From NCBI GenBank assembly GCA_026397505.1, contig JAPLUR010000047.1, positions 11,040-75,039 of the forward strand: 64,000 nt of DNA, given 5' to 3'. A model generated the notes under the pieces. That model ran no database searches. It had not been told where the DNA came from and saw only the letters and a list, made by a program, of their open reading frames with translations. Numbering within the stretch: the stretch's first letter is position 1; each line of letters starts with the position of its first letter. Below, piece after piece: positions 11,880-39,716 of this stretch. The translations under genes were made by a program, and so were the position numbers. This stretch comes from Candidatus Zixiibacteriota bacterium. GTDB lineage: Bacteria > Zixibacteria > MSB-5A5 > GN15 > PGXB01.

Positions 11880-11910
11880 GTGTCGAAACCGCAAGGGTTT
11901 CGATCTACCC
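11880..11910. repeat. GTCGAAAC-hairpin-GTTTCGA(C/T)CTA element, copy 1
   Basis: tGTCGAAACCgcaagGGTTTCGATCTAcc. Confidence 0.7.
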
Positions 11911-11912
11911 GA

Positions 11913-12116
11913 CTAGCTTTGTTTCGTACGATACCGCCGGCGAATTGTCCGGGTTATCAAAAGGTCAATCAAACCGATTAGCGGACCACAGATCAAGCCG
12001 AGCAGTATCAAAAAGGGCAAACTCAGCTTTTCCATTTGAAAGAAATGATATGGAATAACCAAAGCAAGCCCATATATGATTCCCCTGACCAGGTAGGGCA
12101 AATTACCCTGTAGCAA
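11913..12116 (-). CDS. small hydrophobic (2-TM) protein, hypothetical
   Basis: TTG start preceded by AAAGGAGG, 24 nt after the stop of the upstream lipoprotein gene. Hydrophobic composition. Confidence 0.35.
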   Translation of the reverse strand: MLQGNLPYLVRGIIYGLALVIPYHFFQMEKLSLPFLILLGLICGPLIGLIDLLITRTIRRRYRTKQS

Positions 12117-12139
12117 TCAATCCTCCTTTGTTGACATTG

Positions 12140-12895
12140 TTATCTTAACAATTGATCAGCGGCGCAACCAAGCATAGAGCCGAAGGCACTGCCGCCGCAA
12201 GCTAAGCCCAAACAACCCAAATATCCGGCGGTAGAGGCAATACAAATAATGCTGGATGCACCGCAACCTGTAATGGCACGTGAAAGACTGCACTTTAGCC
12301 ATGATTTCCAACGCCACTTTGCGGCCATAGGATAATTAGGGTATAAGTTCATTGAATAGGTGGGCATATAACCATATAGCCAGAGTTGATAATCACCCAT
12401 GTCCTGCATTTCAAAGCCATCTCTTGCGACGGAAGATAGTAATTGCGACTGGATACACCACCCAATGTCCGGATTGCTGACCTGCGTGACATATGCAGCG
12501 ATAGTGCTGTCGCCCGGCATCTCCATAGCCAAGATCAATATTTCCACCGATATCAATGAATCTCTGTCCGGATATTCTGCTTCACCTTCGACGATGAAAC
12601 TGTACTGATATGCCAGACGGAATCCCTGCTCCTCAAAGAATTTGATCTGAGTATTTGCAGGTTCACTTTGTGCCCCCTGCATAAGCCGGGTCGCACCACC
12701 GTTGTCCCATGTCACCATGGTGCCTCCGCCTCCCGTGCCATCGGCAAACCAGTCCTGACGATTATGTTTCAGCCAATCACTCTGATTCATTTTACGCGTG
12801 CTTTCCATGCCACTCTTGCCACAACTCAGGATCAATGCCACTGCCATTAAGGCAATCATCGATCCAATAAACAACGATCTTCGCCTGCGCATCAT
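12140..12895 (-). CDS. lipoprotein with Cys/Gly-rich hydrophobic C-terminal tail, hypothetical
   Basis: AAGGAGG RBS before ATGATG. Lipobox-like ALILSCG. C-terminus ITGCGASSIICIASTAGYLGCLGLACGGSAFGSMLGCAADQLLR. Confidence 0.6.
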   Translation of the reverse strand: MMRRRRSLFIGSMIALMAVALILSCGKSGMESTRKMNQSDWLKHNRQDWFADGTGGGGTMVTWDNGGATRLMQGAQSEPANTQIKFFEEQGFRLAYQYSFIVEGEAEYPDRDSLISVEILILAMEMPGDSTIAAYVTQVSNPDIGWCIQSQLLSSVARDGFEMQDMGDYQLWLYGYMPTYSMNLYPNYPMAAKWRWKSWLKCSLSRAITGCGASSIICIASTAGYLGCLGLACGGSAFGSMLGCAADQLLR

Positions 12896-13347
12896 GATTT
12901 CCTCCTTCATAATAAATAATGATTAAATCTCTTGGCAATATCTAATTGCCATATTTCATTTTTATATTTTCCCATTCTCTCCTTTCCTATGGCGGGTCAA
13001 GGCAATTGATCGGACAGATGCCCCATCTCTCGATTTGAACACCGCCCGCCTTTCGGCGGGCGGCTTCCCTGTCAACCCGAATGGAGGTGAGTCCTCTTAC
13101 CCTGCTCAGGCCGGAGGCACAGAAATGGTTTTGTTCTTTCAGATGCCGAGAGCAGGCTGGAGCCTTGGCCTTAAGCGCTGAACAGCCCGCCCCGGCTATC
13201 CTCAATGGTCCGCCAAATTGGGCTCATGACAGACCAGCAATGCTCATATCAAAAGCGATGCCAACCGAAAGCAGGCACGTCGATATCGCGATAATATGTT
13301 GAACAATAAAGAATTAGGTTGGTATGTTTGAAGAGAGGGCTATTCCT

Positions 13348-13410
13348 GAGCCAGGATGCCTGCGTAGTCTACGCAGGCATCCTGGCTCGCGCTGCGCAGA
13401 CTACGCATCC
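13348..13410. repeat. palindromic repeat element, copy A (GAGCCAGGATGCCTGCGTAGTCTACGCAGGCATCCTGGCTC + TGCGCAGACTACGCATC)
   Basis: Perfect 19-bp-arm inverted repeat around GTC, followed by a second TGCG.AG.CTACGCA palindrome. Confidence 0.85.
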
Positions 13411-13545
13411 AAGTTATTCCGAGGCTTGATAATGTATTCGCTGCTGGATAATTACAGATATGACACGATGAGCTGCCCCACCGGCACAATTAGAGAAGCC
13501 ATTTGACCAGCGTTAGCCCGACACCAATAAGCACGCCACCAGCCG

Positions 13546-13743
13546 CTACTTTCCTTCGCCCCGTTTCTTCAATCGGCTATCGATTAGTATCGAAACGGTA
13601 AGCGCTATATAAATGGCGAAAATAGCGGCTAAGTCATCGCAGAACCCTCTCCTGATGGCGTGCTTAATAAGGAAAAGAACTGGTATGGCAACTATGACAC
13701 CCAACAAGGTTGAAAGAATGAAACGACCAGTTGCTTTTGCCAT
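13546..13743 (-). CDS. small membrane protein (65 aa, 2 TM), hypothetical
   Basis: Hydrophobic helices. Sits in the AT-rich cassette on the same strand as its neighbours. Confidence 0.4.
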   Translation of the reverse strand: MAKATGRFILSTLLGVIVAIPVLFLIKHAIRRGFCDDLAAIFAIYIALTVSILIDSRLKKRGEGK

Positions 13744-13938
13744 TTTCGCATTGCTCCTTTATCAAATAGGATATCACCAAATATTCGAATATTATTCTGG
13801 AAACATAATAATATTGTACTAGTCAGCCAGCATGCTAAGCGCACATACCACATATGAGATAGCCACAGCGCTTATAAAGTTAGGACCTAAATGGATGCCA
13901 ACCTCCCGCCTTTATGATCAATTTCAGCGTTGTTGAGA

Positions 13939-14190
13939 TCAGTCAATATTACACCAATAAATTGCGCCTAATAATGCACCAGACGCCCAAAATCCAATAG
14001 CTAATAGATACAATTTATAGCCCTCTGGGGAAAACCAATCCTTCATCTTCCAAACGGGCCTGATATATTTCATACGAATACTTCCGAGCGCAAACGGCGG
14101 ACAAGATTCAGTACGACGTCTTAAGGCAGGCACTATAGCAATTATACCTGCAATTTCCAATAGCAGTGATAACACAAGCAATAGAATCAT
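13939..14190 (-). CDS. small 2-TM membrane protein, paralog of 14359..14637
   Basis: Shares the motif IRPVWKMKDWFSPEGYKLY with the neighbour (VQPWKVNEWFTPTGVKLY). AGGAAA lies before the ATG. Confidence 0.55.
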   Translation of the reverse strand: MILLLVLSLLLEIAGIIAIVPALRRRTESCPPFALGSIRMKYIRPVWKMKDWFSPEGYKLYLLAIGFWASGALLGAIYWCNID

Positions 14191-14358
14191 ATATGTTTCC
14201 TGTGCTTAAAGAATCCTACTTTTACTTCATACAAAATATCTATTCATTACCCACATATTCCTTTAATATGGCCGATTCCTTGCATTACGCAATATAATTT
14301 AACAATGGCCTCAATCAAAGATGGCGATAAGTACTACGGAAATTGCACATGCCGTCCC

Positions 14359-14637
14359 TTATTTAAAAGGGAAGTCAAATCCGCCGCTGATGATCAGAAG
14401 CACGACTCCTATCATAATACAGGTGTAGCTTGTAAAGTAGAGTTTAACACCTGTCGGCGTAAACCATTCATTTACTTTCCATGGCTGAACCCAATGAATA
14501 GGGTTATATGACGGCATTGGTGGCGCATTGGCCGCGCGATGTTTCCGGGCCAGAAATCCGAGCACTAATCCCATCACCAGAAATACTGCACACAACAATA
14601 ACAGAAAAGTATTCATACCATATCCTCCACTACTCAT
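14359..14637 (-). CDS. small 2-TM membrane protein, paralog of 13939..14190
   Basis: Same architecture as the neighbour: TM, basic patch, W-x-x-E/D-WF-x-P-x-G-x-KLY, TM. Confidence 0.55.
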   Translation of the reverse strand: MSSGGYGMNTFLLLLCAVFLVMGLVLGFLARKHRAANAPPMPSYNPIHWVQPWKVNEWFTPTGVKLYFTSYTCIMIGVVLLIISGGFDFPFK

Positions 14638-14676
14638 AATTGTTTCTGATGATCATTTGTCTTATCGCCGTCCTTT

Positions 14677-15636: not shown

Positions 15637-15794
15637 GGCAATTCCTCCTTTGTTTAGAGCCATTTCCCGAATTATGCCTAAGCCAAATCCGTACCAAGTT
15701 TGGAAGACTATGCCGCCACATTCATAACTCCAATATTGTCATGATGTTAATTATACAAGTCATAGCATTGACTTTAGAACAGCTAAGTTGCACT

Positions 15795-15843
15795 TGCGTA
15801 GTCTACGCAGGCATCCTGGCTCACAGTGCGTAGTCTACGCATC
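15795..15843. repeat. palindromic repeat element, copy B (TGCGTAGTCTACGCAGGCATCCTGGCTC-N6-TGCGTAGTCTACGCATC), direct repeat of copy A
   Basis: Same 28-mer plus second palindrome, in the same orientation as copy A, about 2.4 kb away. Overlaps the 3' end of the sigma-54 regulator gene. Confidence 0.85.
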
Positions 15844-17985
15844 GGAATCATTGCCGATATCGTATTTTCGCATTTGATAGCGCACCCCACCCTCAGTAAG
15901 GCCCAGCCGGCGGGCCGCCTCGCGCTGATTCCAATCCGATTCCTGAAGTGTCTTAAGCAGTTTCTCCCTGTCAGTCTGATTCCCTTCAGACAAAAACTCA
16001 AGCATCCTGCTTATATCCCCACTGCAGGTCAGGCAGAGACGCCGAACCTCTACCCGCAACTCCCGCACATTCCCCGACCAGGGGCGGGTCTGAAGAATGC
16101 TACAGATTTCCTTAAAAGCATCATGATTCCCATCAGACGTAGGATCAAAGCCGCCTTCGGCAAGAAAATGAGAGATTAGAGCCGGGATGTCGTCGCTGCG
16201 CTCCGACAGCGGCGGAAGTGAAATCGGTATCTCATTCAGACGGTGATAGAGATCGGCCCGAAACCGGCCGCTGCGAATTGCCTCCTCCAGGTTTTGATTG
16301 GTCGCTGCGATCACCCGAATATTCAGTTTGGTCGGCTGCGTGCTCCCCAGCCGACGAACCTCTCTGGTCTCCAAAACCTCCAGAAGTTTCGCCTGAAACT
16401 GCGGCGTCGTATCGGCAATCTCATTCAAATAAAAAGTGCCGCCTTCGGCCGTTTCAAACAAACCCGGCTTATCCTGTGGAGCCCCAGTGAATGCCCCTTT
16501 CCGATACCCAAACAACTCCGATTCAACCATCCCCTCCGGTATCGCCGCCGCATTCACCGAAACGAATTTGCCCGCCCGCCCCGAACAAAAGTGGATATAT
16601 TTGGCCAACTGGTCTTTCCCCGTACCGGTCGGCCCGGTCAACAAAACTGTCATCTCTGAGGCGGCAATATTCTCGGCCAACGCCCGGATTTTCCGAGTCG
16701 TGGGATGTTCCGCCACAAAAACAGGACACGCCCCGCCGGAGGGACGAGGAGCGGGGCGTGCGGGTGTTACCGTCAACACGGCATTAACTTTCTCTATGTA
16801 CGGCCGGATATCTTCCGACTCAAAATATTCTTTCGCCAGATAAAGGAGGGCCGCCTTCTCGCCATTGCCATACAATCCGGAGACAGCCGCCAGGTAGCGG
16901 GTGGCCGCCAGTTCATACCGGCTGCTTATTTGAGCGAAAAGGTCAATTGCTTTTTTGAACCATTCTTTGGCTTTATCTTTTTCCCCTCTTTGAAGGGCAG
17001 TCTGAGCGAACACCCGCCAACAAGCGGCAATTTCGGCCCGCTCGTTGATCTTCTCGGCGACAATTAATGCTTCCTCGGCATATTTCTGGGCCAAATCGTA
17101 CCTCTTCAGGCCGAGATAAGCATCAGCCAGAAGCCGTTTGGTTTGGGAGATAAGGGCCGACTCGGGGGCGATTTTAAGCGAGAGTTCCAGCCCTGATAGA
17201 AGCGCCTTCTCCGCCTCATTGAATTCCCCCGCAAGGATATGTATCCAGCCGAGGAATTCATAATACTGCGCCTTTTCACGCTTTAGATCGCCGGACAATT
17301 GTGTCGTCTCAGCTATGAGCTGCTTTGCTGGCCCAATATCACCAACGTGGGCCATGACTAGGGCACAGCGCAATTTATGACGATAGGTGAAATCTGCTGT
17401 AGGATTGTGCATATGTGCTGCTGTGCAATTGAATAGTGAAAGTGCGCTTTGCAGTTGGCCCGAAATAAAATATACCATAGCAAGATTATGGGTCAGACTT
17501 TTAACTTTTTCCTGGTCATTTGACTGCTGATATAGGTCAATGCATTGCTTGAGAAGATTGATAGAAGCGTCAATTTCGCCGGATAAACCTGCAATAAATG
17601 CTAAACGATTTAGTGAGGCTGCAGCGCCTCCGACATCATCGCATCGTTTATAGCTTCCGTACGATTCGAGAAAACATTCGCGCGCTTCGGCATGATTTCC
17701 CATCGCGACGTAGACCCTGCCGAGCAGGAATTTGGCTTTGGCGTATCTATCGGTCCGAATACTATACCTGTAATGCCGGATGGCGCTATTGATGATGGGG
17801 AGAAGATCATAATCGCCAAGTTGAAGACCTATCTCGGTCTTCAAAATGCAATAATGGGCATAGTCGTCAGGCAACATTGACTTAGCATTGAACTTGGTCA
17901 ATTCTAAAGAAGCTGCTCCGAAATTCCTGTCTTTCAGGAATTGCTCAATTGCGGAGAATAGAGATATGTATGTCTCTTGTTTCAT
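15835..17985 (-). CDS. sigma-54-dependent transcriptional activator (bacterial enhancer-binding protein) with N-terminal TPR repeats and C-terminal Fis-type HTH; no receiver domain
   Basis: AAA+ sigma54-interaction domain (GPTGTGKDQLAKYIH, GAFTGA, GGTFYLNEIAD, RFRADLYHRLN). HTH REAARRLGLTEGGVRYQMRKY. TPR-like N-terminal half. Confidence 0.85.
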   Translation of the reverse strand: MKQETYISLFSAIEQFLKDRNFGAASLELTKFNAKSMLPDDYAHYCILKTEIGLQLGDYDLLPIINSAIRHYRYSIRTDRYAKAKFLLGRVYVAMGNHAEARECFLESYGSYKRCDDVGGAAASLNRLAFIAGLSGEIDASINLLKQCIDLYQQSNDQEKVKSLTHNLAMVYFISGQLQSALSLFNCTAAHMHNPTADFTYRHKLRCALVMAHVGDIGPAKQLIAETTQLSGDLKREKAQYYEFLGWIHILAGEFNEAEKALLSGLELSLKIAPESALISQTKRLLADAYLGLKRYDLAQKYAEEALIVAEKINERAEIAACWRVFAQTALQRGEKDKAKEWFKKAIDLFAQISSRYELAATRYLAAVSGLYGNGEKAALLYLAKEYFESEDIRPYIEKVNAVLTVTPARPAPRPSGGACPVFVAEHPTTRKIRALAENIAASEMTVLLTGPTGTGKDQLAKYIHFCSGRAGKFVSVNAAAIPEGMVESELFGYRKGAFTGAPQDKPGLFETAEGGTFYLNEIADTTPQFQAKLLEVLETREVRRLGSTQPTKLNIRVIAATNQNLEEAIRSGRFRADLYHRLNEIPISLPPLSERSDDIPALISHFLAEGGFDPTSDGNHDAFKEICSILQTRPWSGNVRELRVEVRRLCLTCSGDISRMLEFLSEGNQTDREKLLKTLQESDWNQREAARRLGLTEGGVRYQMRKYDIGNDSDA

Positions 17986-18286
17986 TTCCCGGCGTAATTA
18001 CCTTCCAGTAGGAAGGAAAAATAAAGGTTTGATTCGTTATGGCCCTGATAATGTTGATGATTGTATGGCCTTCGTCGCCATTATTTCCGTTATAAATATT
18101 GGGCGCTATTCTGCAAGGAGAAGTGGAGTGAGACAGCAAAACATCTTCCCACGGATAATCCCACAAAATCGGATTGTTAATGGGCTGCACATTTCTTATT
18201 CTATTGCCGCCATCAGCTAGAACAGGTGGGGAAAACAAAATCCATATCACCGCCCCCAGCAGCAAAGCAAACATTATCTTTTTCAT
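17945..18286 (-). CDS. small secreted protein (113 aa), paralog of 18332..18712
   Basis: Signal peptide MKKIMFALLLGAVIWILFSPPVLADGGNRIRNV is about 90% identical to the neighbour's N-terminus. The 5' leader is also conserved. Confidence 0.6.
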   Translation of the reverse strand: MKKIMFALLLGAVIWILFSPPVLADGGNRIRNVQPINNPILWDYPWEDVLLSHSTSPCRIAPNIYNGNNGDEGHTIINIIRAITNQTFIFPSYWKVITPGNETRDIHISILRN

Positions 18287-18331
18287 AACTTTCGCCTCTT
18301 CCTAAAGGTTTATTAAGGCCACTAAACCTCA

Positions 18332-18712
18332 TCACCGGCGGCCCAAATCGCCGGCATTTATATCTGTGTCGAAACTCCCGACCAAGGGGTCGGGACAGGC
18401 GCAGGGGTTTCGACCTATCTTAATCAACGAAAAATCAAATCTTATAGAGAAATATATATAAAGCATATTGCCTATAATGTTTCTCGGGGGAGTAGTCACG
18501 CGGTCCTGCGTAGCAATCCTTATGTTTGACAACGCGATGTCAGATAGTGATGGTGACGCACCATCCAATTCCTGCCACGGGTGTTCTTCAAGAGTAGGAT
18601 CATGGATTGATATCACATTTCTTATTCTATTACCCCCATCAGCAAGAATGGGTGGGGAAAACAACATCCATATCACAGTCCCCAGCAGTAATGCAAACAT
18701 TATCTTTTTCAT
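18332..18712 (-). CDS. small secreted protein, diverged paralog of 17945..18286
   Basis: Start set at MKKIMFALLLGTVIWMLFSPPILADGGNRIRNV, with a GAGGTG RBS. The ORF track's longer start (18748) lacks an RBS. Confidence 0.6.
   Translation of the reverse strand: MKKIMFALLLGTVIWMLFSPPILADGGNRIRNVISIHDPTLEEHPWQELDGASPSLSDIALSNIRIATQDRVTTPPRNIIGNMLYIYFSIRFDFSLIKIGRNPCACPDPLVGSFDTDINAGDLGRR
18366..18428. repeat. GTCGAAAC...GTTTCGACCTA element, copy 2 (in the 5' leader of small secreted protein gene A)
   Basis: tGTCGAAACtcccgaccaaggggtcgggacaggcgcaggGGTTTCGACCTAt with an inner hairpin TCCCGACC/GGTCGGGA. Confidence 0.7.
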
Positions 18713-18790
18713 AATCATCACCTCATTCAAAAGGTTTATCTTGGCCACTAAACCTCATCACCGGCAATCCAATCCACCGGCATTTATTCT

Positions 18791-18828
18791 CTGTCGAAAC
18801 CGCCTACCGCCAGCGGGGTTCGACCTAT
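18791..18828. repeat. GTCGAAAC...GGTTCGACCTA element, copy 3 (in the 5' leader of small secreted protein gene B)
   Basis: tGTCGAAACCgcctaccgccagcGGGGTTCGACCTAtt. Confidence 0.7.
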
Positions 18829-19034
18829 TGCGCTTCAACATCGCGGGAGGGCCGGGCCAAAAATGCTGAGTCTGAAAACCAGTGTCGCTGATTGCAGGGT
18901 AAGGTTGTTGCCACCGGCATTCTCCCATTCGGATTTCTTAGCCTATCTCTATAACTAAGATGATTTTTATTAAGAATTTGTCAAGCAAAAAATCACCTTA
19001 AGTGCCTGTCCAGCTTAAAATATAGCCTTTACCC

Positions 19035-19051
19035 CTGTCAGAACCTGACAG
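19035..19051. promoter_or_regulatory. candidate operator palindrome CTGTCAG-N4-TGACAG upstream of the aconitase-family/MFS/PrpD operon
   Basis: Perfect 7(6)-bp inverted repeat about 115 nt upstream of the ATG at 19165. Confidence 0.35.
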
Positions 19052-23914: not shown

Positions 23915-23991
23915 TTTATCGAAAAATAAGAAGGCGGTCCATAAATGGGCCGCCTTTCACATCCGGATGATATTTATCGCCGCAGGTCAGA

Positions 23992-26622
23992 TCACAGGAT
24001 TAATACCAATTTCCCGATCTGATTGCCAAATTCCGATTCGACCACATAGTAATATATGCCGGAAACGGCCGCCTGTGTATTGCGGGTGATCAGGTCCCAT
24101 TCATCGTGCATACTTCTGGGGGAATCTTTCGGCATATCATGATCGATCTCTCTGACCAGATCGCCGTCAATAGAGAAAATCCTGATTTTGCACTTATGCG
24201 GCAGATTTGTAAAATGAATACGGCGCACACGGTCGTCAGCCATTTCCTCCTGGCCTCGTCCCTCAAAGCCTCCGCCTGCCTCTTCACGATAGTTGGCATC
24301 GATACGATACGGGTTGGGATAGACGACCACCTCGAGGCCCTTCGATTCAACCAGGCTGCTCTGATACTGGGCATATTCGGCCACCATATTCGCCGAATAC
24401 TGGCTTTCAAGTGATTCCAGACCGCTGCCGGGAGAGCCGTAATCAAAAGCGGTTACCGTAACATAGTATAACTGCGACGGCAGCAGGTGTTTAATTGAAT
24501 ATTCATATTCATAATATTTGAATTTCCCGTCTTCGGTCAGTTCTTCCGGATGATAAACTCTGGTCGAGTCGAAATTCAGAATGGTCGGAGGATGCTCATC
24601 AGGATAAACCTTATGAATCAGAGTGGTGTCGTGCAAATTGGAGACATTCCAGTCCTTCTTAATGAAATAGAAAAACGAATCGCGCCACTCGAAAAGATTG
24701 TCGCGGTCAAAGCGCAGCGGGTCGAAATATTCGCCATACAGGGTTCTCAGAGAATCCAGCGAAAAAGGGATATCTTTCAATTCGAAAAATCGCCGAAGCG
24801 GATTCCAGATATATTTCTGATAATCGTCAACGTCGCAGGAGGCCACCATGACAAAGTCGGAGGATTTTGGTGAGAGCGATCGGTAAACCCGATATCCCTC
24901 GAAATCAACCACCCCGCTGAACACATCTCTTTCTGTCTCCGAACGCAAACCGTTCCAGCGGATGCGCATCTCCCCCTCATTATAACTGTTGATACTTGGG
25001 TAGACTTTCAGAACCGGCGCCGGAGGCGGAGAGGCGCCGCGAAAATCGGGGACACCATCCCCCTCATAGAAATTGGTATCGGCCCGCAGATAGACGATGG
25101 TTGTTTCAATGACCGGCGAATCCCCGGTAGTATCGATCCGGAGCATCGAGTCTAAAACGCAAATACGATATTTACCCTTATAGCCGTCGCCGTCGGTATC
25201 ATACCCCGGATTGTCATATATCCATGAGGCCCAAAGAGAATTGCGGCCGAGGTCCTCGAAATTCATGTAGTTATAATAGACTTCCGGAAAACTGGGGTTG
25301 AAGAGATTTCTGAACGCATTGCAGTCAGTATAGAGATTTTCGCCGGCGATATAGGCGAGGCTCATCGGAAGAATTTCGCCGGGGGCGATATCGAAGGGGC
25401 CCCAGGAGAGAAGATAACGAGTATCATATCCATCGGCAAAATCGGCCGCTTCTTCCGATGGCGGCAGCCAGCCTTCCGCGGTATTATCCTTGGCACTGAA
25501 TAACTGGTCATAATCAAATTCGACATGCCTCATAACATAATATTTGTTGCGGTCACCTTCCGGAGTCCCCAGAAACCCGCCGAAATCACGGAATGGATCC
25601 TCCGGAGTGCCGGCCAATCGGGGACCGAAATCGCTGGCGGCATCACCGTTGGAAATCCACCAGTTGAACGAATATTCGAGAGAATCGGAAGGGGTCCGGA
25701 TCACCCGCGAACCGGTCAAGGAGGTCAGCGAATTGTTCTCCGAGAAAGGACAGGGGTCACCATTGTCCTGCTTGCCGTCATTATCGGCGATCCAGGCAAC
25801 ATTGATGGTGTCGATAAAACCACATCCAAAAGGAGAAGGAGTAGCCCGCCGGAAACCGCATATATCATCGGCATACCCCGTGGCTCCGCCTGGCGAGTTA
25901 GTAACATCGGCATCAACATATACCCCCATACATACTTTTTTCAGCGGCTTGCGTCCGATATTTTTTATGGAATAGTCAAAAAGGACAAAATCCTCGGCAT
26001 AGGAATAACTCCACGCATATGATCTCTGGGTAACTTCGATATTAAGGGGAATATGCGGGCGGTTGTCATAAGGATCCATCTCGACCAGACTCGGCCGGGT
26101 CACGGTATCAGTATATATGGCGATATAATCCTGTTCCGAGACAGCCAGAGAATCGTCCGGATCCGCAATAGAATGATATTCAACCCTTCCTTTCGGCCAG
26201 GGATCGGGCCAGAGTTCCTTGGTGAAATGCCAGCCATCGGCTCCAACCGTGACCAGTGTATCACGGTCAACGATGGCACCTATCCAGAAAGCGCCCGCAA
26301 AGAGATAATTCAGACGCCCGGGGTAAGGATAGATACAAGAGGGCGCCGGGCCGCCGGTCAGCGGGTCGGCCACTCCCGAAATGAAACCTGTTCCAAAATG
26401 CCCCTGATTGGAGACGGTCAGACCAATCTTGCCGATATTGTGCACCCCCACACTGACATACGGCTCATCGGCGGAAATCTTGCCGACAACAGGTAACGGA
26501 GAACTTTCGGGAAGAATCGTTCGCGCCGAGGTCATCCAAGGTGATAACCCCCAGATAAAGACCAGTGCAATCAATAGAAATCGCCAGCTATTATATTTTC
26601 TCATAAAATTCTTCCCAACCAT
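23992..26622 (-). CDS. large secreted protein with T9SS C-terminal sorting domain (insertion-containing CTD)
   Basis: N-terminal signal/TM. C-terminus VVVYPNPYRID...IHFTNLPHKCKIRIFSIDGDLVREIDHD...SGIYYYVVESEFGNQIGKLVLIL follows the T9SS CTD pattern. Confidence 0.7.
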   Translation of the reverse strand: MVGKNFMRKYNSWRFLLIALVFIWGLSPWMTSARTILPESSPLPVVGKISADEPYVSVGVHNIGKIGLTVSNQGHFGTGFISGVADPLTGGPAPSCIYPYPGRLNYLFAGAFWIGAIVDRDTLVTVGADGWHFTKELWPDPWPKGRVEYHSIADPDDSLAVSEQDYIAIYTDTVTRPSLVEMDPYDNRPHIPLNIEVTQRSYAWSYSYAEDFVLFDYSIKNIGRKPLKKVCMGVYVDADVTNSPGGATGYADDICGFRRATPSPFGCGFIDTINVAWIADNDGKQDNGDPCPFSENNSLTSLTGSRVIRTPSDSLEYSFNWWISNGDAASDFGPRLAGTPEDPFRDFGGFLGTPEGDRNKYYVMRHVEFDYDQLFSAKDNTAEGWLPPSEEAADFADGYDTRYLLSWGPFDIAPGEILPMSLAYIAGENLYTDCNAFRNLFNPSFPEVYYNYMNFEDLGRNSLWASWIYDNPGYDTDGDGYKGKYRICVLDSMLRIDTTGDSPVIETTIVYLRADTNFYEGDGVPDFRGASPPPAPVLKVYPSINSYNEGEMRIRWNGLRSETERDVFSGVVDFEGYRVYRSLSPKSSDFVMVASCDVDDYQKYIWNPLRRFFELKDIPFSLDSLRTLYGEYFDPLRFDRDNLFEWRDSFFYFIKKDWNVSNLHDTTLIHKVYPDEHPPTILNFDSTRVYHPEELTEDGKFKYYEYEYSIKHLLPSQLYYVTVTAFDYGSPGSGLESLESQYSANMVAEYAQYQSSLVESKGLEVVVYPNPYRIDANYREEAGGGFEGRGQEEMADDRVRRIHFTNLPHKCKIRIFSIDGDLVREIDHDMPKDSPRSMHDEWDLITRNTQAAVSGIYYYVVESEFGNQIGKLVLIL

Positions 26623-30415: not shown

Positions 30416-30489
30416 ACCGTTTTACGTCCTAAGAGTTCGCCAATCTAATAAAAATAATGGTAAATCCTAATCTTTTTTATCATCTTTCA

Positions 30490-32500: not shown

Positions 32501-32586
32501 ATCTTTTCATTTGCGTAGAGACAGCGTCCTGTTGTTCGTTATAGAGAAAGATTGTTCTGTCTGCGCCGGATACAGTAGATTTGCTA

Positions 32587-33168: not shown

Positions 33169-33364
33169 CCGGGACTCCTTTCTCGGGGCGTTCATGACTG
33201 CAAATCAAAAATACAACATATGATATATTGGCGGCCATAGAAAAATGCGAGAGGACAGAACGATGTTGTCCTGTCCCTACGGAACACGCACAGACAATTT
33301 AATGTGGAAACGGATGCTCCAAGGACTTTAGGGAAACAATTTCTCTGCAAAAGCATTGGGGTTT

Positions 33365-33751: not shown

Positions 33752-33819
33752 CAGTTGCTCCTTTTATGACTTACCCGGAAATCCCCACAGAACGTGGGGA
33801 TCGAATACCAATCTGGAAT

Positions 33820-35514: not shown

Positions 35515-35801
35515 ATCTCCTCCAATAATCAAAGGTGCAGGCGGTCAAAACCTTTTTGGAACAACAGGGTGGAATGTAAGGGATAAATTTGGGTTTGGCA
35601 AGGGGGGGCGGATTGGGGTTATGCCGCAGGGTCACGCCGGACAGGGCAAGCGGTATAAGAGCCGGCGGAACAAAGAAATACAGTTGACTTTGAAAGGGCG
35701 GCGGCCCTATCTTAAGCACATGTCCATTTTTTTAGGGGAAGATCAGATCACTCAAGACAAAGAGATAAGTTGTCTTTGCTAAACAAGGAGGTTTGAAGAC
35801 C

Positions 35802-36608
35802 ATGACACAGAGCAAAAGCATCGTTCTGCTGTTACTTTCGGTATCGTTATTGGCGCTGGCCGGCTGCGGAACCCAGGTTCCCTCGGGACATCGCGCCGTT
35901 TTCTACAGCACTTTTGGATCCGGCACGGAGTTCGGACGGATCTATGGCGAAGGCTTCACTTTCCACCTGCCGTGGAACAAGATGTTCGTATACCGCACTC
36001 AGATTCAGGAGCAGAAGGAAGACCTTACGGTTCTGTCGTCCGACGGCGCTTCGATCAAAATGGAAGTCTCGATTCTCTATTACCCGGAACCGACAAAGCT
36101 CGATTCGCTTCAGGTTACGGTGGGAGAAGGCTACTACTCGGATATCGTAGCGCCCAATATCAGAGGTATCGCCAGGGCTGTCGCCGGTCGCTACAAGCCC
36201 GAGGAGATCTATTCCACGAAGCGCGAACAGGTGGCCAGGGAGATTATTGACGAACTGAAGGCATCGGTGGCCAAGAAGTGGATTGTCATCGAAAATGTAC
36301 TGATTCGCAACGTGCAGATACCGGAAAAGATTTCCGATGCGATCAATTTCAAGCTGACCGCCGATCAGGAGACTCAGCGGATGCAGTTTACCATCGAGAA
36401 GGAGCGACTCGAGGCTGACCGCAAGCGGATCGAAGCACAGGGTATTGCCGACTTTCAGAAAATTGTCTCGGCCGGGCTGACATCGTCGTATCTGAAGTGG
36501 AAGGGAATCGAGGCCACCGAGCATCTGGCGACCTCGACCAACTCGAAGATCGTGATAGTCGGCAACTCGTCCAATTCCATGCCGGTAATTCTGAGCGCCG
36601 ACAAGTGA
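35802..36608 (+). CDS. SPFH/band-7 (prohibitin-like) family lipoprotein
   Basis: Lipobox LLALAGC. The SPFH domain pattern runs through ...EQKEDLTVLSSDGASIKMEVSILYY. Confidence 0.75.
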   Translation: MTQSKSIVLLLLSVSLLALAGCGTQVPSGHRAVFYSTFGSGTEFGRIYGEGFTFHLPWNKMFVYRTQIQEQKEDLTVLSSDGASIKMEVSILYYPEPTKLDSLQVTVGEGYYSDIVAPNIRGIARAVAGRYKPEEIYSTKREQVAREIIDELKASVAKKWIVIENVLIRNVQIPEKISDAINFKLTADQETQRMQFTIEKERLEADRKRIEAQGIADFQKIVSAGLTSSYLKWKGIEATEHLATSTNSKIVIVGNSSNSMPVILSADK

Positions 36609-36620
36609 GCTAGCCCGGAA

Positions 36621-36677
36621 ATGTCGAAACCCGCGCTCATTCCGCATTCTGCGGAATTCGGGGGAATTTCGACCTAC
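36621..36677. repeat. GTCGAAAC...TTTCGACCTA element, copy 4 (after the SPFH gene)
   Basis: aTGTCGAAACCcgcgctcATTCCGCattcTGCGGAATtcgggggaaTTTCGACCTAca with an inner ATTCCGC/GCGGAAT hairpin. Confidence 0.7.
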
Positions 36678-36720
36678 ACCTGTATGTGCGACAATGAGAT
36701 AGGCGATATTCGCTCTATGG

Positions 36721-36938
36721 CGTAAATTGGGTTCGTTTCTTCGATTTTTAAAATATCACGGTGGCATGTTTGCGCCAAAGGCCAAGAATGAACAATTTCT
36801 GTGCATTATGATGAGCTGTGACAATCTCCTTTTGGCGATCAGACTATTTATGGCCGGGGAATTATTATTCATATATAAGGGGTAGGGCGTAAATCACCAT
36901 CGAAGTTGTAGTGATTTTGCTTGGGTGACGGTGAAAGG
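36721..36938. repeat. bipartite about 220-nt intergenic element, copy 2 (left arm 36721-36776, right arm 36880-36938)
   Basis: Left arm CGTAAATTGGGTTCGTTTCTTCGATTTTTAAAAT. Right arm GGGTAGGGCGTAAATCACCATCGAAGTTGTAGTGATTTTGCTTGGGTGACGGTGAAAGG. The middle is unrelated to copy 1. Confidence 0.65.
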
Positions 36939-37120
36939 CGATGCTCAAAAATGAGACCCGCTTTAATCCTAATTATGCCCTTGACAATTAAGACGGGGTC
37001 TACAACGGCTGTTAGAAAAATGTTAGAAAGAATATTTGTGACCTGTGGATTTCGCGGGATATATTATGAGTTTTGTAAGGCAGGCTATTGAAGCCTGCCT
37101 TGCCCTATTTCTGTAGTTGC

Positions 37121-39316
37121 CTATTTTAGAAGCAGCATTTTGCGGGTCTCAGAAAATTCACCCGCTACAATTCTATAAAGATAGATGCCTGTTGAGACCG
37201 ACTGACCGTCCTTGCTTCGACCGTTCCAAACAACTTGATAAGTACCGGGCGAAAACTCATGGTCAACCAATCTGGCTATTTCGGCACCCAGCAGGTTATA
37301 AACTGCAACGGTGACATGAGATCTTTGGGGAACAGCGAATCCAATTGTTGTGGCCGGGTTGAACGGATTTGGATGGTTCTGAAACAGTGCGAAATCCTCA
37401 GGCAATTTGCCGGTGTATATATCAGATATGTCTGTGTAGGTGTTCGGGCCCGACCAGCCACTGGGGCCACAAGCGTTGAAGGATCTAACACGCCACCACA
37501 AATCGCCGCCTGGCACAGTGAGTTGTACGCTGCAAGAGCTGATAGTTGTGTCCTTCCACAAGTGCAGAAAGCTTGAAGCACTAGTATCTATCTGGAGACT
37601 GTAACCAGAGGCTTGTGAGACACACTGCCAGATGAACGATAAGACGACAGGACCGTGTGCGCCACTGCTTGGAATCATGCTTCCGGGATTCGGATTTGCC
37701 GGAATCGTGATGATCGTCACGCAAATCTGGTTGCTGAGGTTGCTTGCCCCACAGCTGTTTTTCGCCAGAACATAGTAGCAGTAAGATCCCCCTGAGGCCT
37801 TAGTATAGCATCGCTGCGTTACGTTACCAATGTCCGTCCAGCCGCCACCATTCTCCTGAATCTCGTAACTGGTCGCACCCGCAACCGCACCCCACGATAT
37901 ACAATACTGAACATTCGTACACCCGGACGCAGGCCCCGTAATGAACGGTGGCAGAGGAACAGGATCCACCGTCACGCAATGCTGGTTACTGGAATTACTT
38001 TGTCCACAGCTGTTTTTCGCCCGAACATAGTAGCAATAAGATCCCCCTGAGGCCTTAGTATAGCATCGCTGCGTTACGTTACCAATGTCCGTCCAGCCTC
38101 CACCATTCTCCTGAATCTCGTAACTGGTCGCACCCGCAACCGCACCCCACGATATACAATACTGAACATTCGTACACCCGGACGCAGGCCCCGTGATGAC
38201 CGGCGGAATAGGAGGGGGCAAGGGGGAACAACATGACTGCGACGATTTGCTGGAATTGTAGTAACAGCCGTATTGAGCATCAACCTGATAGCAGTGCGAC
38301 CCGCCGGAGTAGTCATTGTATGGCGGACTGAATGTACCTAAGGTTCCGCCGTCCCGGTAGAGGGTATAGCCAGTCGCTCCGGTGACCGTATTCCAATTAA
38401 TGCTCACATAACCACATTGCGGAGTACAACTGACTATGGGAACATCTTTTGTATATTCCGCAACATACGTGGCTCCCTGACTCGCAGAGATATCGATCCA
38501 CTGGTCCATGGTAAGGAGGTTACAGACATCCCACCAACCTAGAAACGTCCTTCCCAAGGCGGGGTTTGAAGCTGCTATCCTGACCGATGCACCTTGGCTA
38601 TAGCGAAAAGTGGCAGGTGTGTAACCGCCGGATTTTCCATCAGCGTCGGATGGAGTTACGAAGACGTACACGCCATTCTCTGGTACACTGATTACACTAA
38701 AAGTAACATTTTGGGGAGGAGTAGTCACCACAACCAATGTCTCTGGGAATGATGACGATTGCCTTGATCTCAACTCGGCGATGCCCGTGGTATATTCGGT
38801 TATCGGTCTAATCTCGAAGCCATTGTTGCTTTGGCTACCAGTTACCCAGTTCTTGATGTCATAGAAGTTTGGCGCGTCGACTTGTATGTCGCTCCATCCC
38901 GGTAAAAGCGTTGACTGGCCGAGTACTACGGAAGCGCTAGGCTGATTATTCCAGGTTATGGTATATTCGTCCCACGCAGCCGAGACCAAGAGAATATAGG
39001 ATGACTGGTTGGGATTCGACCCTGCATTGTAAATCTTCAATCTGGCATCTGTTATATATGGTGCTTCTCCTGAAGGAATTACTGACAGATCGAATTTTAA
39101 GAACGATCGCAGCCGACCATTATTGACATCGTAGCCCACAAGAAGGGCGATACCACCACCATCATTGGTATTGGGGTATTTGATGGAAACATCGGCGTCA
39201 GCGACCGACAAAAGCCTGTAAGTTGTCGCGTGCACCTGCATTGTCAATCCAGGCAAAAACAGGAAACTTACAAGAACCAAGAGACCAATTTTGGTCGAAC
39301 GTGAACAACATTGCAT
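37121..39316 (-). CDS. secreted FN3-like repeat protein with T9SS C-terminal sorting domain
   Basis: GGAG RBS before the ATG at 39316. Signal peptide. Two near-identical 85-aa repeats. C-terminus FQNHPNPFNPATTIGFAVP...GIYLYRIVAGEFSETRKMLLLK. Confidence 0.8.
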   Translation of the reverse strand: MQCCSRSTKIGLLVLVSFLFLPGLTMQVHATTYRLLSVADADVSIKYPNTNDGGGIALLVGYDVNNGRLRSFLKFDLSVIPSGEAPYITDARLKIYNAGSNPNQSSYILLVSAAWDEYTITWNNQPSASVVLGQSTLLPGWSDIQVDAPNFYDIKNWVTGSQSNNGFEIRPITEYTTGIAELRSRQSSSFPETLVVVTTPPQNVTFSVISVPENGVYVFVTPSDADGKSGGYTPATFRYSQGASVRIAASNPALGRTFLGWWDVCNLLTMDQWIDISASQGATYVAEYTKDVPIVSCTPQCGYVSINWNTVTGATGYTLYRDGGTLGTFSPPYNDYSGGSHCYQVDAQYGCYYNSSKSSQSCCSPLPPPIPPVITGPASGCTNVQYCISWGAVAGATSYEIQENGGGWTDIGNVTQRCYTKASGGSYCYYVRAKNSCGQSNSSNQHCVTVDPVPLPPFITGPASGCTNVQYCISWGAVAGATSYEIQENGGGWTDIGNVTQRCYTKASGGSYCYYVLAKNSCGASNLSNQICVTIITIPANPNPGSMIPSSGAHGPVVLSFIWQCVSQASGYSLQIDTSASSFLHLWKDTTISSCSVQLTVPGGDLWWRVRSFNACGPSGWSGPNTYTDISDIYTGKLPEDFALFQNHPNPFNPATTIGFAVPQRSHVTVAVYNLLGAEIARLVDHEFSPGTYQVVWNGRSKDGQSVSTGIYLYRIVAGEFSETRKMLLLK
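37750..38195 (-). repeat. near-identical about 255-bp tandem duplication inside T9SS cargo gene (two 85-aa FN3-like modules)
   Basis: About 190-nt blocks from 37750 and from 38003 are identical except a handful of substitutions. Confidence 0.85.
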
Positions 39317-39660
39317 TTGACTCTCCTTTCCAACGTGCTCCAAACCATGACACGTTACCTTATGCCAATGACATTCCGATATTAGGTTCGTAGACGCCAT
39401 ATATACCGTTCAGCATTGGGCTATTCTGTTAACAGATTGTGAGATGTTATCTACAAGTCAGGCTTAAAGACCCCGAGATCGGAAACGGATTCATCTTGCA
39501 GTTTCATCCCGGTTCGTTTAAACATATCCTCTGAACTGTCTAAGTTAGGCCGCGCTTTGCCTAATGTCAAGCGCTTTTCGATATAATTCTCTCCTTATCC
39601 TGAGTGTTTCTGTCTTGATTCGCTCCCGTTGCTCCAGGATTTAGGTTGATCAGTATGAAT

Positions 39661-39716
39661 CGTCGAAACCCCCGCTCATTCCGCCTGCGGCGGAATTCGG
39701 AGGGCATTTCGGACCG
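39661..39716. repeat. GTCGAAAC...TTTCGGACC element, copy 5 (between the T9SS cargo gene start and prfB)
   Basis: cGTCGAAACCcccgctcATTCCGCctgcgGCGGAATtcggagggcaTTTCGGACC. Same inner hairpin as copy 4. Confidence 0.65.

What the first reader, a model, noticed from the sequence alone, without database searches (positions are those of the whole stretch)
11880..39716. Five-copy family of GTCGAAAC-[variable hairpin]-GTTTCGACCTA elements
Copies sit at 11880, 18366, 18791, 36621 and 39661. All share the outer arms tGTCGAAAC / (G)GTTTCGA(C)CTA, while the enclosed 5-40 nt differs but always forms its own hairpin. Compensatory, structure-preserving variation like this argues for a structured RNA or protein-binding site rather than random palindromes. 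Copies 2 and 3 sit in the 5' leaders of the paralogous small secreted protein genes. Copies 4 and 5 share an inner ATTCCGC/GCGGAAT hairpin that also recurs in the 63-kb triple-hairpin array. Candidates are a REP/BIME-like mobile palindrome, a cis-regulatory RNA, or a recombination site.
Basis: seen in the sequence. Interest (0 to 1): 0.65.

Follow-up and report, generated by a model that had tools for sequence, protein, structure and literature searches.

The report
GTAG-tagged REP palindromes of Zixibacteria
The five hairpins are copies of a repetitive extragenic palindrome (REP), a small DNA hairpin spread by a domesticated transposase (RAYT); this is a well-known kind of element, seen here in an uncultured phylum (Zixibacteria) for which I found no published description.

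Summary
Five copies lie at 11881-11908, 18367-18418, 18792-18828, 36622-36677 and 39661-39717, all in one orientation. Copy 5 is decayed. Read on the minus strand, each is (G/A)TAG-GTCGAAACC-[loop]-GGTTTCGAC-A: a GTAG head, a 9-bp stem and a loop of 5 to about 35 nt. This is the anatomy of a GTAG-tagged REP.

A truncated scan of one genome per species returned 120 loci from 68 assemblies. Most are Candidatus Zixiibacteriota. The G that completes GTAG was not in the search pattern, yet 139 of 148 copies have it.

Nine of the 120 loci carry a RAYT homologue or fragment. Three representatives pass the NCBIfam RAYT cut-off, and two match E. coli TnpA_REP (4ER8). In all five loci where both sides can be read, the gene is flanked by this REP with GTAG heads outward, the classical REPtron.

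Copies favour convergent and unidirectional intergenic regions. Few are followed by a T-run. Some supply a TAG stop codon.

The cis-regulatory RNA and recombination-site candidates are not. The window holds no RAYT. This is a new member of a known kind, of modest interest.

The parts
11881..11908 (-). REP copy 1, short (basic) form. Minus strand: GTAG-A-TCGAAACC-CTTGC-GGTTTCGA-C-A. Intact GTAG head and a 5-nt loop of the family type CYTGY.
   Evidence: Sequence. Folds as a 9-bp hairpin, z about -2.8 to -2.9 on either strand. Matches the dominant 28-nt form found in Zixibacteria genomes. Lies between the split MFS gene (ends 11341) and a 256-aa minus-strand ORF (ends 12140). Only short ORFs without Pfam hits overlap it.
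18367..18418 (-). REP copy 2, long form. Minus strand: ATAG-GTCGAAACC-CCTG-[CGCCTGT CCCGACC CCTT GGTCGGG A]-GTTTCGAC-A. The head is ATAG. An inner 7-8 bp hairpin is inserted after the conserved CCTG of the loop.
   Evidence: Lies between the two tandem small secreted-protein genes on the same (minus) strand. The ORF of the upstream paralogue (18332-18712) reads through it.
18792..18828 (-). REP copy 3, medium form. Minus strand: ATAG-GTCGAA-CC-[CCGCTGGCGGTAGGC]-GGTTTCGAC-A. The head is ATAG and the 5' arm lacks one A.
   Evidence: From the 3' arm onward it shares about 190 bp (leader plus signal-peptide coding part) with the unit that contains copy 2. Sits in the divergent region between the small gene (start 18712, minus) and aconitase (19156, plus).
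36622..36677 (-). REP copy 4, long form. Minus strand: GTAG-GTCGAAATT-CCCCCGA-[ATTCCGC AGAAT GCGGAAT]-GAGCGCG-GGTTTCGAC-A. Intact GTAG head.
   Evidence: Lies in a convergent intergenic region, 13 nt after the stop of the SPFH/Band-7 gene (35793-36608, plus) and 444 nt after the stop of the minus-strand CBM96/T9SS-tail gene. L087 1400-1453 has the same skeleton.
39661..39717 (-). REP copy 5, a decayed member of the same subfamily as copy 4. The head is GGCG instead of GTAG, one extra base in the 5' (head-side) arm of the stem on the GTAG strand (GTCCGAAAT for GTCGAAAT) breaks the pairing, and the tail is G.
   Evidence: weak z of -1.8. Missed by the relaxed family pattern. Lies in the divergent region between the CBM96 gene (start 39400, minus) and prfB (39974-40978, plus).

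Best explanation
The five elements are copies of one family of GTAG-tagged repetitive extragenic palindromes (REPs) that is widespread in Candidatus Zixiibacteriota.

**Anatomy.** The basic unit is 28 nt on the GTAG strand: GTAG, G, a 9-bp perfect stem (GTCGAAACC/GGTTTCGAC), a 5-nt loop (CYTGY) and a 3' A. Longer copies carry one or two small GC-rich hairpins inserted in the loop after CCTG. Such long forms propagate as subfamilies; copies 4 and 5 are an example.

**Mechanism, inferred from characterised relatives (E. coli, S. maltophilia, Marinomonas).** A single-copy HUH/Y1 enzyme, the REP-associated tyrosine transposase (RAYT, also TnpA_REP), binds the REP folded as a single-stranded DNA hairpin. 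Binding is strand-specific and uses the GTAG head plus stem and loop features. The enzyme cuts at a nearby dinucleotide and joins strands, and this spreads and maintains the family.

**Secondary effects, inferred and not shown here.** Because copies accumulate just downstream of genes, they are probably transcribed into mRNA 3' ends. There they may act as protective hairpins or weak terminators, as described for other REPs.

**State of the copies in this window.** They are passive copies. Two have intact GTAG heads (1 and 4), two have ATAG heads (2 and 3) and one is decayed (5). The RAYT of this genome lies outside the window.
For: **Anatomy and head**
- Across 148 copies from related genomes, the base completing GTAG is present in 139, although it was not in the search pattern.
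- Hairpins headed by GTAG number 224, against 7-88 for control tetranucleotides.

**Discrete structural class with covariation**
- Of 902 GTAGG sites in the loci, 112 have at least 8 of 9 pairs in the 28-nt geometry, while the background peaks at 2 pairs.
- 39 of those 112 have a non-canonical stem (for example GTCAGGAGC, GGCAGGTCT, GTCGAAAGG), paired at 8 or 9 of the 9 positions.

**Cognate enzyme**
- RAYT homologues or fragments occur in 9 of the 120 loci, which were chosen only for containing the element.
- Three representatives score 149, 135 and 96 bits on NCBIfam NF047646 'REP-associated tyrosine transposase' (cut-off 80). They score only 20-31 bits on the IS200 model (cut-off 55).
- They also hit Pfam Y1_Tnp. 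The two representatives searched against solved structures match E. coli TnpA_REP, PDB 4ER8, at E=1.7e-26 and 3.7e-28, with the HUH motif and the tyrosine aligned to Y115 conserved.

**REPtron arrangement**
- In every locus where both flanks are visible (L064, L114, L087, L083, L007), the RAYT gene is bracketed within about 10-400 nt by this REP, with GTAG heads outward.
- Example: L064 has REP 4054-4081, RAYT 4117-4611, REP 4620-4647.

**Genomic placement**
- Convergent: unidirectional: divergent = 46: 59: 14, against a 1:2:1 expectation (chi-square about 17, my calculation).
- Many copies lie 0-6 nt past a stop codon, and in some the TAG of the head is the stop codon. Both features are described for GTAG REPs in PMC3733652.

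**Variable loops are known for REPs**
- Variable, self-complementary loops are documented for other GTAG families, GTAG-3 and GTAG-14, with loops up to 27 bp (PMC3733652).

**The window is zixibacterial**
- Its proteins are 64-76% identical to, and partly syntenic with, Zixibacteria loci L085 and L066.
Against: - No RAYT is present in the 64-kb window (tblastn), and the rest of the source genome could not be reached. The cognate pairing is shown in relatives only.
- The whole-genome copy number is an extrapolation: 5 per 64 kb here, and about 70-80 extra copies in 832 kb of seeded loci.
- Only 2 of the 5 window copies have an intact GTAG.
- No conserved CT cleavage dinucleotide is visible in the flanks.
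- Copies are mostly singlets, not the inverted pairs (REPINs, BIMEs) typical of the best-studied families.
- By my crude ORF calling, 22% of copies fall inside long ORFs. I did not resolve whether these are real intragenic copies or false ORFs.
- The TAG of the head and the 3' A (the leading T on the other strand) were part of the scan pattern, so their conservation among seed copies holds by construction.
Confidence: 0.9

Rival explanations
1. A cis-regulatory structured RNA, such as a leader or attenuator or the binding site of an RNA-binding protein, transcribed in the T-GTCGAAAC...CCTAC orientation.
For: - In that orientation many long forms carry C(UUCG)G mini-hairpins, and some short forms have GNRA-like loops (GCAAG, GUAAA).
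- Copies 2 and 3 lie upstream of paralogous genes.
Against: - No Rfam family reaches its gathering score anywhere in the window.
- Copies are not tied to any gene family. The only recurrent specific neighbour is RAYT; the other two large neighbour clusters are generic surface proteins and ABC ATPases.
- Divergent (promoter) regions are depleted: 14 of 119.
- In unidirectional regions the GTAG strand is the mRNA sense more often than the other strand (37 against 22). For the CCGAAG/UUCG long forms the split is 4 against 1, so the transcript would mostly read CCGAAG rather than UUCG.
- In copies 2 and 3 the UUCG-type orientation is antisense to the adjacent genes.
- From my own knowledge, the complement C-GAA-G is itself a very stable DNA mini-hairpin, so these loops do not discriminate between RNA and DNA.
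Confidence: 0.03
2. They are primarily transcription terminators or 3' stabilising hairpins of this lineage, and their shared sequence reflects a lineage-specific termination factor rather than mobility.
For: - Strong bias to gene 3' ends and convergent junctions, often within 0-6 nt of the stop codon.
- Stable hairpins.
Against: - Only 11% (GTAG orientation) and 6% (opposite orientation) of 197 copies are followed by a run of at least 4 T within 12 nt.
- The same genome and its relatives have ordinary intrinsic terminators with T-runs at other convergent junctions, for example window 48302-48327 and L066 near 2050-2080.
- A terminator model does not explain the unpaired GTAG head or the RAYT genes bracketed by the element.
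- A secondary role as a 3' hairpin is compatible with the REP explanation and is part of it.
Confidence: 0.04
3. Integron attC-like or other site-specific recombination sites, with the small paralogous genes as cassettes.
For: - The arms end in AAC and begin with GTT, as attC R''/R' boxes do. The centre varies in length.
- Copies 2 and 3 alternate with two small ORFs.
Against: - The arms do not fit RYYYAAC/GTTRRRY.
- The basic unit is a 28-nt perfect hairpin with no room for paired R and L boxes or extrahelical bases.
- Copies are dispersed singly over 28 kb and across genomes, not arranged in cassette arrays.
- Among the window ORFs scanned with Pfam (20 large or element-adjacent ORFs), none is an integrase; the remaining ORFs were not scanned.
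- The two-gene arrangement is explained by a roughly 190-bp segmental duplication.
Confidence: 0.01
4. A double-stranded operator for a dimeric transcription factor, for example the upstream activating site of the neighbouring sigma-54 activator (15835-17985).
For: - Perfect inverted half-sites.
- Copies 2 and 3 lie about 70-125 nt upstream of the start codons of two small genes that sit next to a sigma-54 enhancer-binding protein gene.
Against: - Spacing between half-sites ranges from 5 to about 35 nt, which is incompatible with a fixed dimer footprint on duplex DNA.
- Most copies lie at gene 3' ends.
- The stem sequence changes by compensated substitutions that preserve pairing rather than sequence.
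- The element occurs at an estimated tens of copies per Mb.
Confidence: 0.02

Closest known systems
GTAG-tagged REP superfamily (Di Nocera, De Gregorio & Rocco 2013, PMC3733652), especially the perfect-stem families such as S. maltophilia SMAG (GTAG-6 to -9)
   Same: - Unpaired GTAG at one end, a 6-13 bp stem and a short loop.
- Subfamilies with complementary stem changes.
- Preference for convergent and unidirectional intergenic regions close to 3' ends.
- The TAG of the head sometimes serves as a stop codon.
- RAYT genes flanked by the repeats (against my).
   Different: - Different stem sequence (GTCGAAACC), a 5-nt CYTGY loop and a host phylum (Zixibacteria). That paper lists tagged REPs in 8 phyla; I did not check its figure or supplementary lists for Zixibacteria or for this stem sequence.
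- Mostly singlets rather than head-to-head dimers.
- One stem sequence is shared by dozens of species-level genomes.
E. coli REP/BIME with TnpA_REP (RAYT; PDB 4ER8; Messing 2012 PMC3479197; Corneloup 2021 PMC8266576)
   Same: - Homologous enzyme (E=1e-26 to 1e-28), with conserved HUH and catalytic Tyr.
- REPtron layout.
- GTAG head 5' of the hairpin.
- The five full-length zixibacterial RAYTs end in [F/Y]GE. This resembles G160/E161 of the E. coli C-terminal tail, which contact GTAG. I did not align this tail.
   Different: - E. coli REPs are imperfect palindromes whose bulge is needed for recognition, and they are organised in BIMEs.
- The zixibacterial REP has a perfect 9-bp stem, like 'group 3' REPs, and is mostly solitary.
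GTAG-3 and GTAG-14 REPs (Enterobacteria; Rhodopseudomonas, Bradyrhizobium) with long loops
   Same: Loops vary in length between members. Their inner regions are self-complementary, up to 27 bp. This matches the 5 to about 35-nt interiors with mini-hairpins seen here.
   Different: Here the insert sits after a conserved CCTG, and it often consists of two tandem mini-hairpins closed by C-GAA-G on the GTAG strand (UUCG on the other strand).
IS200/IS605 transposon ends and their non-autonomous derivatives (PATEs)
   Same: A Y1 HUH enzyme recognises subterminal hairpins as single-stranded DNA. A tetranucleotide 5' of the hairpin acts as a guide.
   Different: - The enzymes here pass the RAYT model and fail the IS200 cut-off.
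- The repeats are 28-56-nt solitary hairpins, not the two different ends of a mobile segment.

Membership tests
REP (GTAG-tagged repetitive extragenic palindrome) | Short (about 20-40 bp) palindrome able to form a stem-loop | tested here: met
   The basic unit is 28 nt with a 9-bp stem. Long forms reach about 56 nt through loop inserts, as in the known GTAG-3 and GTAG-14 families.
REP (GTAG-tagged repetitive extragenic palindrome) | Conserved unpaired GTAG (or GTRG) tetranucleotide at one end | tested here: met
   The G completing GTAG was not in the search pattern and is present in 139 of 148 copies. GTAG-headed hairpins number 224 against 7-88 for control heads. In the window the heads are GTAG in two copies, ATAG in two, and decayed in one.
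REP (GTAG-tagged repetitive extragenic palindrome) | High copy number, dispersed through the genome | tested here: inconclusive
   There are 5 copies in 64 kb. There are 197 relaxed matches in 832 kb of seeded loci, which extrapolates to roughly 80-90 per Mb.
REP (GTAG-tagged repetitive extragenic palindrome) | Mainly extragenic, enriched between convergent and unidirectional genes near 3' ends | tested here: met
   Convergent 46, unidirectional 59, divergent 14. Many copies lie 0-6 nt from a stop codon. Gene calls were crude: longest ORFs, chosen greedily.
REP (GTAG-tagged repetitive extragenic palindrome) | A cognate RAYT gene flanked by inverted copies of the same REP (REPtron) | tested here: met
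   Met in related genomes: L064, L114, L087, L083 and L007, with partial cases in L084, L119, L047 and L004. Not testable for the source genome of the window, because no RAYT lies within the 64 kb.
REP (GTAG-tagged repetitive extragenic palindrome) | Strand-specific binding and cleavage of the single-stranded REP by its RAYT | not testable with these tools
   This needs purified enzyme and oligonucleotides. Only conservation of the HUH motif and catalytic Tyr is shown.
REPIN / BIME (paired or clustered REPs) | Most copies occur as closely spaced inverted pairs or regular clusters | tested here: not met
   111 of the 120 loci have a single strict match. The few pairs are mostly direct or more than 100 nt apart. 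The five window copies are solitary, apart from the direct pair created by the gene duplication.
Integron attC site | R''-L''...L'-R' boxes (RYYYAAC / GTTRRRY) with extrahelical bases, arranged in cassette arrays next to intI | tested here: not met
   The arms do not fit the consensus. The 28-nt perfect hairpin has no L boxes. No arrays are present, and none of the window ORFs scanned with Pfam (20 large or element-adjacent ORFs) is an integrase.
Intrinsic (Rho-independent) terminator | GC-rich hairpin immediately followed by a T-run | tested here: not met
   A T-run of at least 4 within 12 nt follows only 21 of 197 copies in one orientation and 12 of 197 in the other. Canonical terminators exist elsewhere in the window, for example at 48302-48327.
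Any curated Rfam RNA family | Match at or above the family's gathering score | tested here: not met
   There are 0 matches in the whole window on both strands.

The most novel reading that the evidence does not exclude
The loop of this REP may be a hotspot where small, very stable mini-hairpins are repeatedly inserted or replaced by an active process, either RAYT-dependent or replication-dependent. The mini-hairpins read C-GAA-G on the GTAG strand and C-UUCG-G on the other.

On this reading, one REP scaffold conserved across much of a phylum carries a fast-turnover cargo. That cargo could be selected for a function on either strand: stability of the single-stranded DNA hairpin for the transposase, or an RNA 3'-end cap.

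The hint is that copies 2 and 3 share about 190 bp of flanking sequence at roughly 88% identity, yet their loops cannot be aligned.
Probability: 0.15. Interest if true: 0.5.

Novelty: new member of a known kind. Interest (0 to 1): 0.3.

Why it matters
The finding gives a firm annotation for a recurrent hairpin in Zixibacteria genomes, which otherwise looks like an unknown RNA motif or regulatory site.

It also extends the REP/RAYT partnership to a candidate phylum known only from metagenomes. The same stem sequence appears in at least about 40 named zixibacterial species-level genomes, and in 68 assemblies in a truncated scan.

That breadth makes the family useful in three ways:
- as a test case for how long a REP and its domesticated transposase can co-evolve;
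- as a marker for binning zixibacterial contigs, since several hits sit in bins labelled Ignavibacteria, Thaumarchaeota and others;
- as a natural series of loop variants for studying what a RAYT tolerates.

It does not reveal a new kind of system.

Tried and rejected
- **Source genome not recovered.** Two exact-protein look-ups found nothing. blastn of the window against the 120 loci gave no nucleotide match.
- **IS200 query.** phmmer with an IS200 TnpA sequence recalled from memory found nothing in the loci. An HUH-motif prefilter plus clustering of neighbouring ORFs found the RAYTs instead.
- **RNA reading of the UUCG and GNRA-like loops.** Orientation relative to upstream genes does not favour that strand, so I dropped it as the main reading.
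- **Replication-strand polarity.** All 5 window copies are on one strand, and cumulative GC skew rises across the window. Across the loci, however, REP orientation against local GC skew is not significant (Fisher p=0.17).
- **Generic GTAG-hairpin scan of the window.** With 7 of 8 pairs allowed it was dominated by chance hits and added no new copies. Half-site searches also added none.
- **Orthologous-site comparison for mobility.** This gave only weak evidence. The orthologue in L035 of window gene 23992-26622 has a REP 56 nt past its stop, where the window has only an ordinary hairpin. L066 is syntenic with window 46-52 kb but carries its REP next to an extra gene. The genomes are too diverged to call insertion against loss.
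- **Resemblance to parS (TGTTTCAC/GTGAAACA).** Rejected, because the half-sites are in everted order and their spacing varies.
- **Covariance model.** Not built. Regex and half-site searches already recovered all copies, and a 28-nt model would add little.

Full report
**1. The observation**

The five elements are present at the stated places. The octamer GTCGAAAC occurs 8 times in the window against 1.7 expected, and no shuffle reaches 8. Six of the eight lie in the five elements. The composite pattern GTCGAAAC-N(3-33)-GTTTCGA occurs 3 times against 0 expected. A relaxed two-arm scan finds copies 1 to 4, all in one orientation. It also returns three further plus-strand matches, which I take to be chance because the total of ten on both strands is close to the 3.7 (maximum 8) seen in shuffles. 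Copy 5 is a degraded relative of copy 4. It shares the inner ATTCCGC/GCGGAAT hairpin, but its outer arm and tail are broken. Searches for each half-site on its own found no further copies in the window. All five fold as hairpins on either strand. The z-scores are clearly negative for copies 1, 2 and 4 and weak for copies 3 and 5.

**2. What the window is**

Neighbouring genes include MFS transporters, a sigma-54 activator with TPR repeats, aconitase, an SPFH protein, surface proteins with FlgD_ig/T9SS-type C-terminal tails, RF2, Pta and PFOR. Window proteins are 64-76% identical to, and partly syntenic with, ORFs of loci from MAGs named Zixibacteria (L085, L066). The window is therefore from a zixibacterial genome. 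Rfam finds nothing at gathering thresholds, and there are no tRNAs.

**3. The family outside the window**

I scanned one genome per species with TGTCGAAAC-N(4-34)-GGKTTCGAYCTA. By my count of the titles, these come from 68 assemblies. Thirty-seven are named Zixibacteria or Zixiibacteriota. Most of the rest are unnamed 'bacterium', 'Ignavibacteria' bins, GN15 or FCB group. Eight have unrelated labels, which may be mis-binned contigs or chance matches.

Most matches (73 of 129) are a 27-nt short form like copy 1. The rest fall into classes of about 36-39 and 48-54 nt, in which the interior is one or two small GC-rich hairpins.

**4. The decisive anatomical clue**

I aligned the flanks of 148 copies. 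The base after ...TTCGA-CCTA is C in 139 of them, although it was not part of the search pattern. On the opposite strand the element therefore reads GTAG-G-TCGAAACC...GGTTTCGA-C-A. That is an unpaired GTAG head followed by a palindrome, the signature of the GTAG superfamily of REPs (PMC3733652).

A scan that asks only for a tetranucleotide followed by a perfect 8-bp hairpin finds 224 cases for GTAG, against 7-88 for seven control heads. The highest control, GATG, is the other end of the same element.

I then anchored only on GTAGG and imposed the 28-nt geometry. The number of paired positions is sharply bimodal: 112 of 902 sites have at least 8 of 9 pairs, while the background peaks at 2. Thirty-nine of the 112 have non-canonical stems paired at 8 or 9 of the 9 positions, such as GTCAGGAGC, GGCAGGTCT and GTCGAAAGG. 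The loop stays close to CYTGY. So the structure is conserved while the stem sequence changes by paired substitutions between subfamilies, as described for REP families.

**5. The cognate enzyme**

I clustered all ORFs of the 120 loci. The two largest clusters are generic, abundant paralogue families: giant surface proteins and ABC ATPases. The next is a family of about 165 residues carrying an HUH motif.

- Three representatives score 149, 135 and 96 bits on NCBIfam NF047646, 'REP-associated tyrosine transposase' (cut-off 80). They fail the IS200 model, at 20-31 bits against a cut-off of 55.
- They hit Pfam Y1_Tnp.
- The two representatives searched against solved structures match E. coli TnpA_REP (PDB 4ER8) at E=1.7e-26 and 3.7e-28. 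The HUH motif and the Tyr aligned to E. coli Y115 are conserved.

tblastn finds this family, complete or as fragments, in 9 of the 120 loci and not in the window. In every locus where both sides can be seen, the gene is bracketed by the same REP with GTAG heads pointing outward:

| Locus | Left REP(s) | RAYT | Right REP |
|---|---|---|---|
| L064 | 4054-4081 | 4117-4611 | 4620-4647 |
| L114 | 101-152 | 161-661 | 670-721 |
| L087 | 1292-1319 and 1400-1453 | 1852-2352 | 2364-2412 |
| L083 | 3178-3205 and 3238-3265 | 3265-3765 | 3784-3811 |
| L007 | 4516-4562 | 4585-5088 | 5096-5140, then a truncated second gene copy and another REP |

This is the REPtron arrangement (PMC3733652; PMC8266576).

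**6. Genomic placement**

With crude gene calls, copies lie between convergent genes (46), unidirectional genes (59) and divergent genes (14). This departs from 1:2:1 in the direction reported for REPs.

Many copies sit 0-6 nt beyond a stop codon, and in several the TAG of the head is the stop codon. This too is reported for GTAG REPs.

Only 11% and 6% of copies are followed by a T-run in the two orientations. The window itself has ordinary terminators with T-runs at other junctions, for example 48302-48327. The elements are therefore not the lineage's standard terminators.

In unidirectional regions the GTAG strand is the sense strand of the upstream gene more often than not: 37 against 22.

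**7. The window copies in this light (GTAG strand = window minus strand)**

- Copy 1 is the basic form with an intact head.
- Copy 4 is a long form with an intact head. It lies 13 nt past the stop of the SPFH gene, in a convergent region.
- Copy 5 is a decayed member of the same subfamily, in a divergent region.
- Copies 2 and 3 have ATAG heads and flank the upstream member of two tandem paralogous small secreted-protein genes. From the REP 3' arm through the leader and the first ~100 nt of coding sequence (33 codons, spanning the signal peptide), the two units are about 88% identical. Beyond that they do not align. They are therefore best read as one REP duplicated together with a gene 5' module. 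Their loops cannot be aligned to each other. This is the one feature I cannot explain by simple divergence.

**8. Mechanism**

Shown here:
- the anatomy of the element;
- its distribution across genomes;
- covariation of the stem;
- its placement relative to genes;
- its association with a bona fide RAYT that retains its catalytic residues.

Inferred from the characterised E. coli, S. maltophilia and Marinomonas systems (PMC8266576; PMC3479197):
- the RAYT binds the GTAG strand folded as a single-stranded hairpin;
- it cuts at a nearby dinucleotide and transfers strands, which spreads the family.

I could not identify a conserved cleavage dinucleotide in the flanks.

A secondary role of transcribed copies as protective 3' hairpins is plausible from their placement, but I did not test it.

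The zixibacterial RAYTs end in a conserved [F/Y]GE. This resembles the G160/E161 tail contacts of the E. coli 'group 2' enzyme with GTAG. Their REP, however, has a perfect stem like 'group 3' REPs. I did not align the tail, so this remains a lead only.

**9. Rivals**

- A cis-regulatory RNA is contradicted by the lack of gene-family association, by the depletion in divergent regions, and by the orientation statistics.
- An attC-like site is contradicted by the size, perfection and dispersal of the unit.
- A duplex operator is contradicted by the 5 to about 35-nt spacing between half-sites and by the compensated stem changes.
- A dedicated terminator is contradicted by the missing T-runs and by the presence of ordinary terminators.
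- The UUCG-type loops seen on the non-GTAG strand read C-GAA-G on the GTAG strand. From my own knowledge that is itself a very stable DNA mini-hairpin, so they do not argue for RNA.

**10. Novelty**

Every feature has a precedent in described GTAG REP families. This includes loops of variable length with self-complementary interiors. I found no paper linking Zixibacteria with REPs or RAYTs in the searchable library. The finding is a new member of a known kind.

The breadth of conservation of one stem sequence across many species-level genomes is worth a note for people who study REP-RAYT co-evolution. So is the modular loop. Neither changes the picture of what REPs are.

Noticed in passing
window 63040-63247: Three tandem copies, about 70-95 nt apart, of a second palindrome family: CTGTTGC-GTCAGGTC-[CTAGATTCCGC..GCGGAAGCGA]-GACCTGAC-GCAACAG. 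The same GTCAGGTC/GACCTGAC stem with variable inner hairpins occurs in other zixibacterial loci (L011, L034, L047, L071, L073, L084). It occurs as a GTAG-headed short form in L060 (two copies); L051 carries a similar short hairpin but with a GAAT-type flank instead of GTAG. It is probably a sister REP family. The window copies lack the GTAG head.
   Followed up: partly
window 13347-13407 and 15795-15844: Four copies of a perfect 15-bp palindrome TGCGTAGTCTACGCA, joined to GGCATCCTGGCTC. They form composite inverted and direct repeats that bracket a 2.4-kb segment of low G+C (43-47%) with three unannotatable minus-strand ORFs. The right-hand repeat overlaps the stop of the sigma-54 activator gene. 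This could be the ends of an inserted island or an operator pair.
   Followed up: no
window 17945-18840: Two tandem paralogous small secreted-protein genes (113 and 126 aa) share a near-identical module: the REP 3' arm, an 80-nt leader, and the first 33 codons spanning the signal peptide. The mature parts are unrelated. They lie directly upstream of a TPR-containing sigma-54 enhancer-binding protein gene (15835-17985). The leader contains TGGCC-N8-ACC, which only partly fits a -24/-12 promoter.
   Followed up: partly
window 10158-11341: An MFS_3-type transporter gene is split into two overlapping ORFs (10158-10997 and 10973-11341), both with MFS hits. This is a frameshift, from either a pseudogene or an assembly error.
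   Followed up: no
window 39974-40978: The RF2-like ORF (PCRF plus RF-1 domains) starts at profile position 9 with a TTG. This fits the usual programmed +1 frameshift of prfB, with the short first frame lying upstream. I did not check it.
   Followed up: no
window 48302-48327 and 23930-23965; L066 about 2050-2080: Ordinary intrinsic terminators sit at convergent gene junctions: a GC hairpin, one with a UUCG loop, followed by T7. This shows that the lineage uses canonical terminators alongside REPs.
   Followed up: partly
loci L063, L092, L093, L050, L075/L115/L118, L114 and L038: Exact REP matches occur on contigs binned as Thaumarchaeota, Nanopelagicales, Bacteroidales, Acidoferrum, Deferrimicrobium (three contigs), Pseudomonadota (with a REP-flanked RAYT) and Syntrophaceae. 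About ten more bins are labelled Ignavibacteria. These are likely mis-binned or mislabelled zixibacterial contigs, so the REP could serve as a binning marker.
   Followed up: no
L007 4585-5526: A RAYT gene is followed by a REP, then a 5'-truncated second RAYT copy (89% identical), then another identical REP. This is a local tandem duplication of the REPtron.
   Followed up: no
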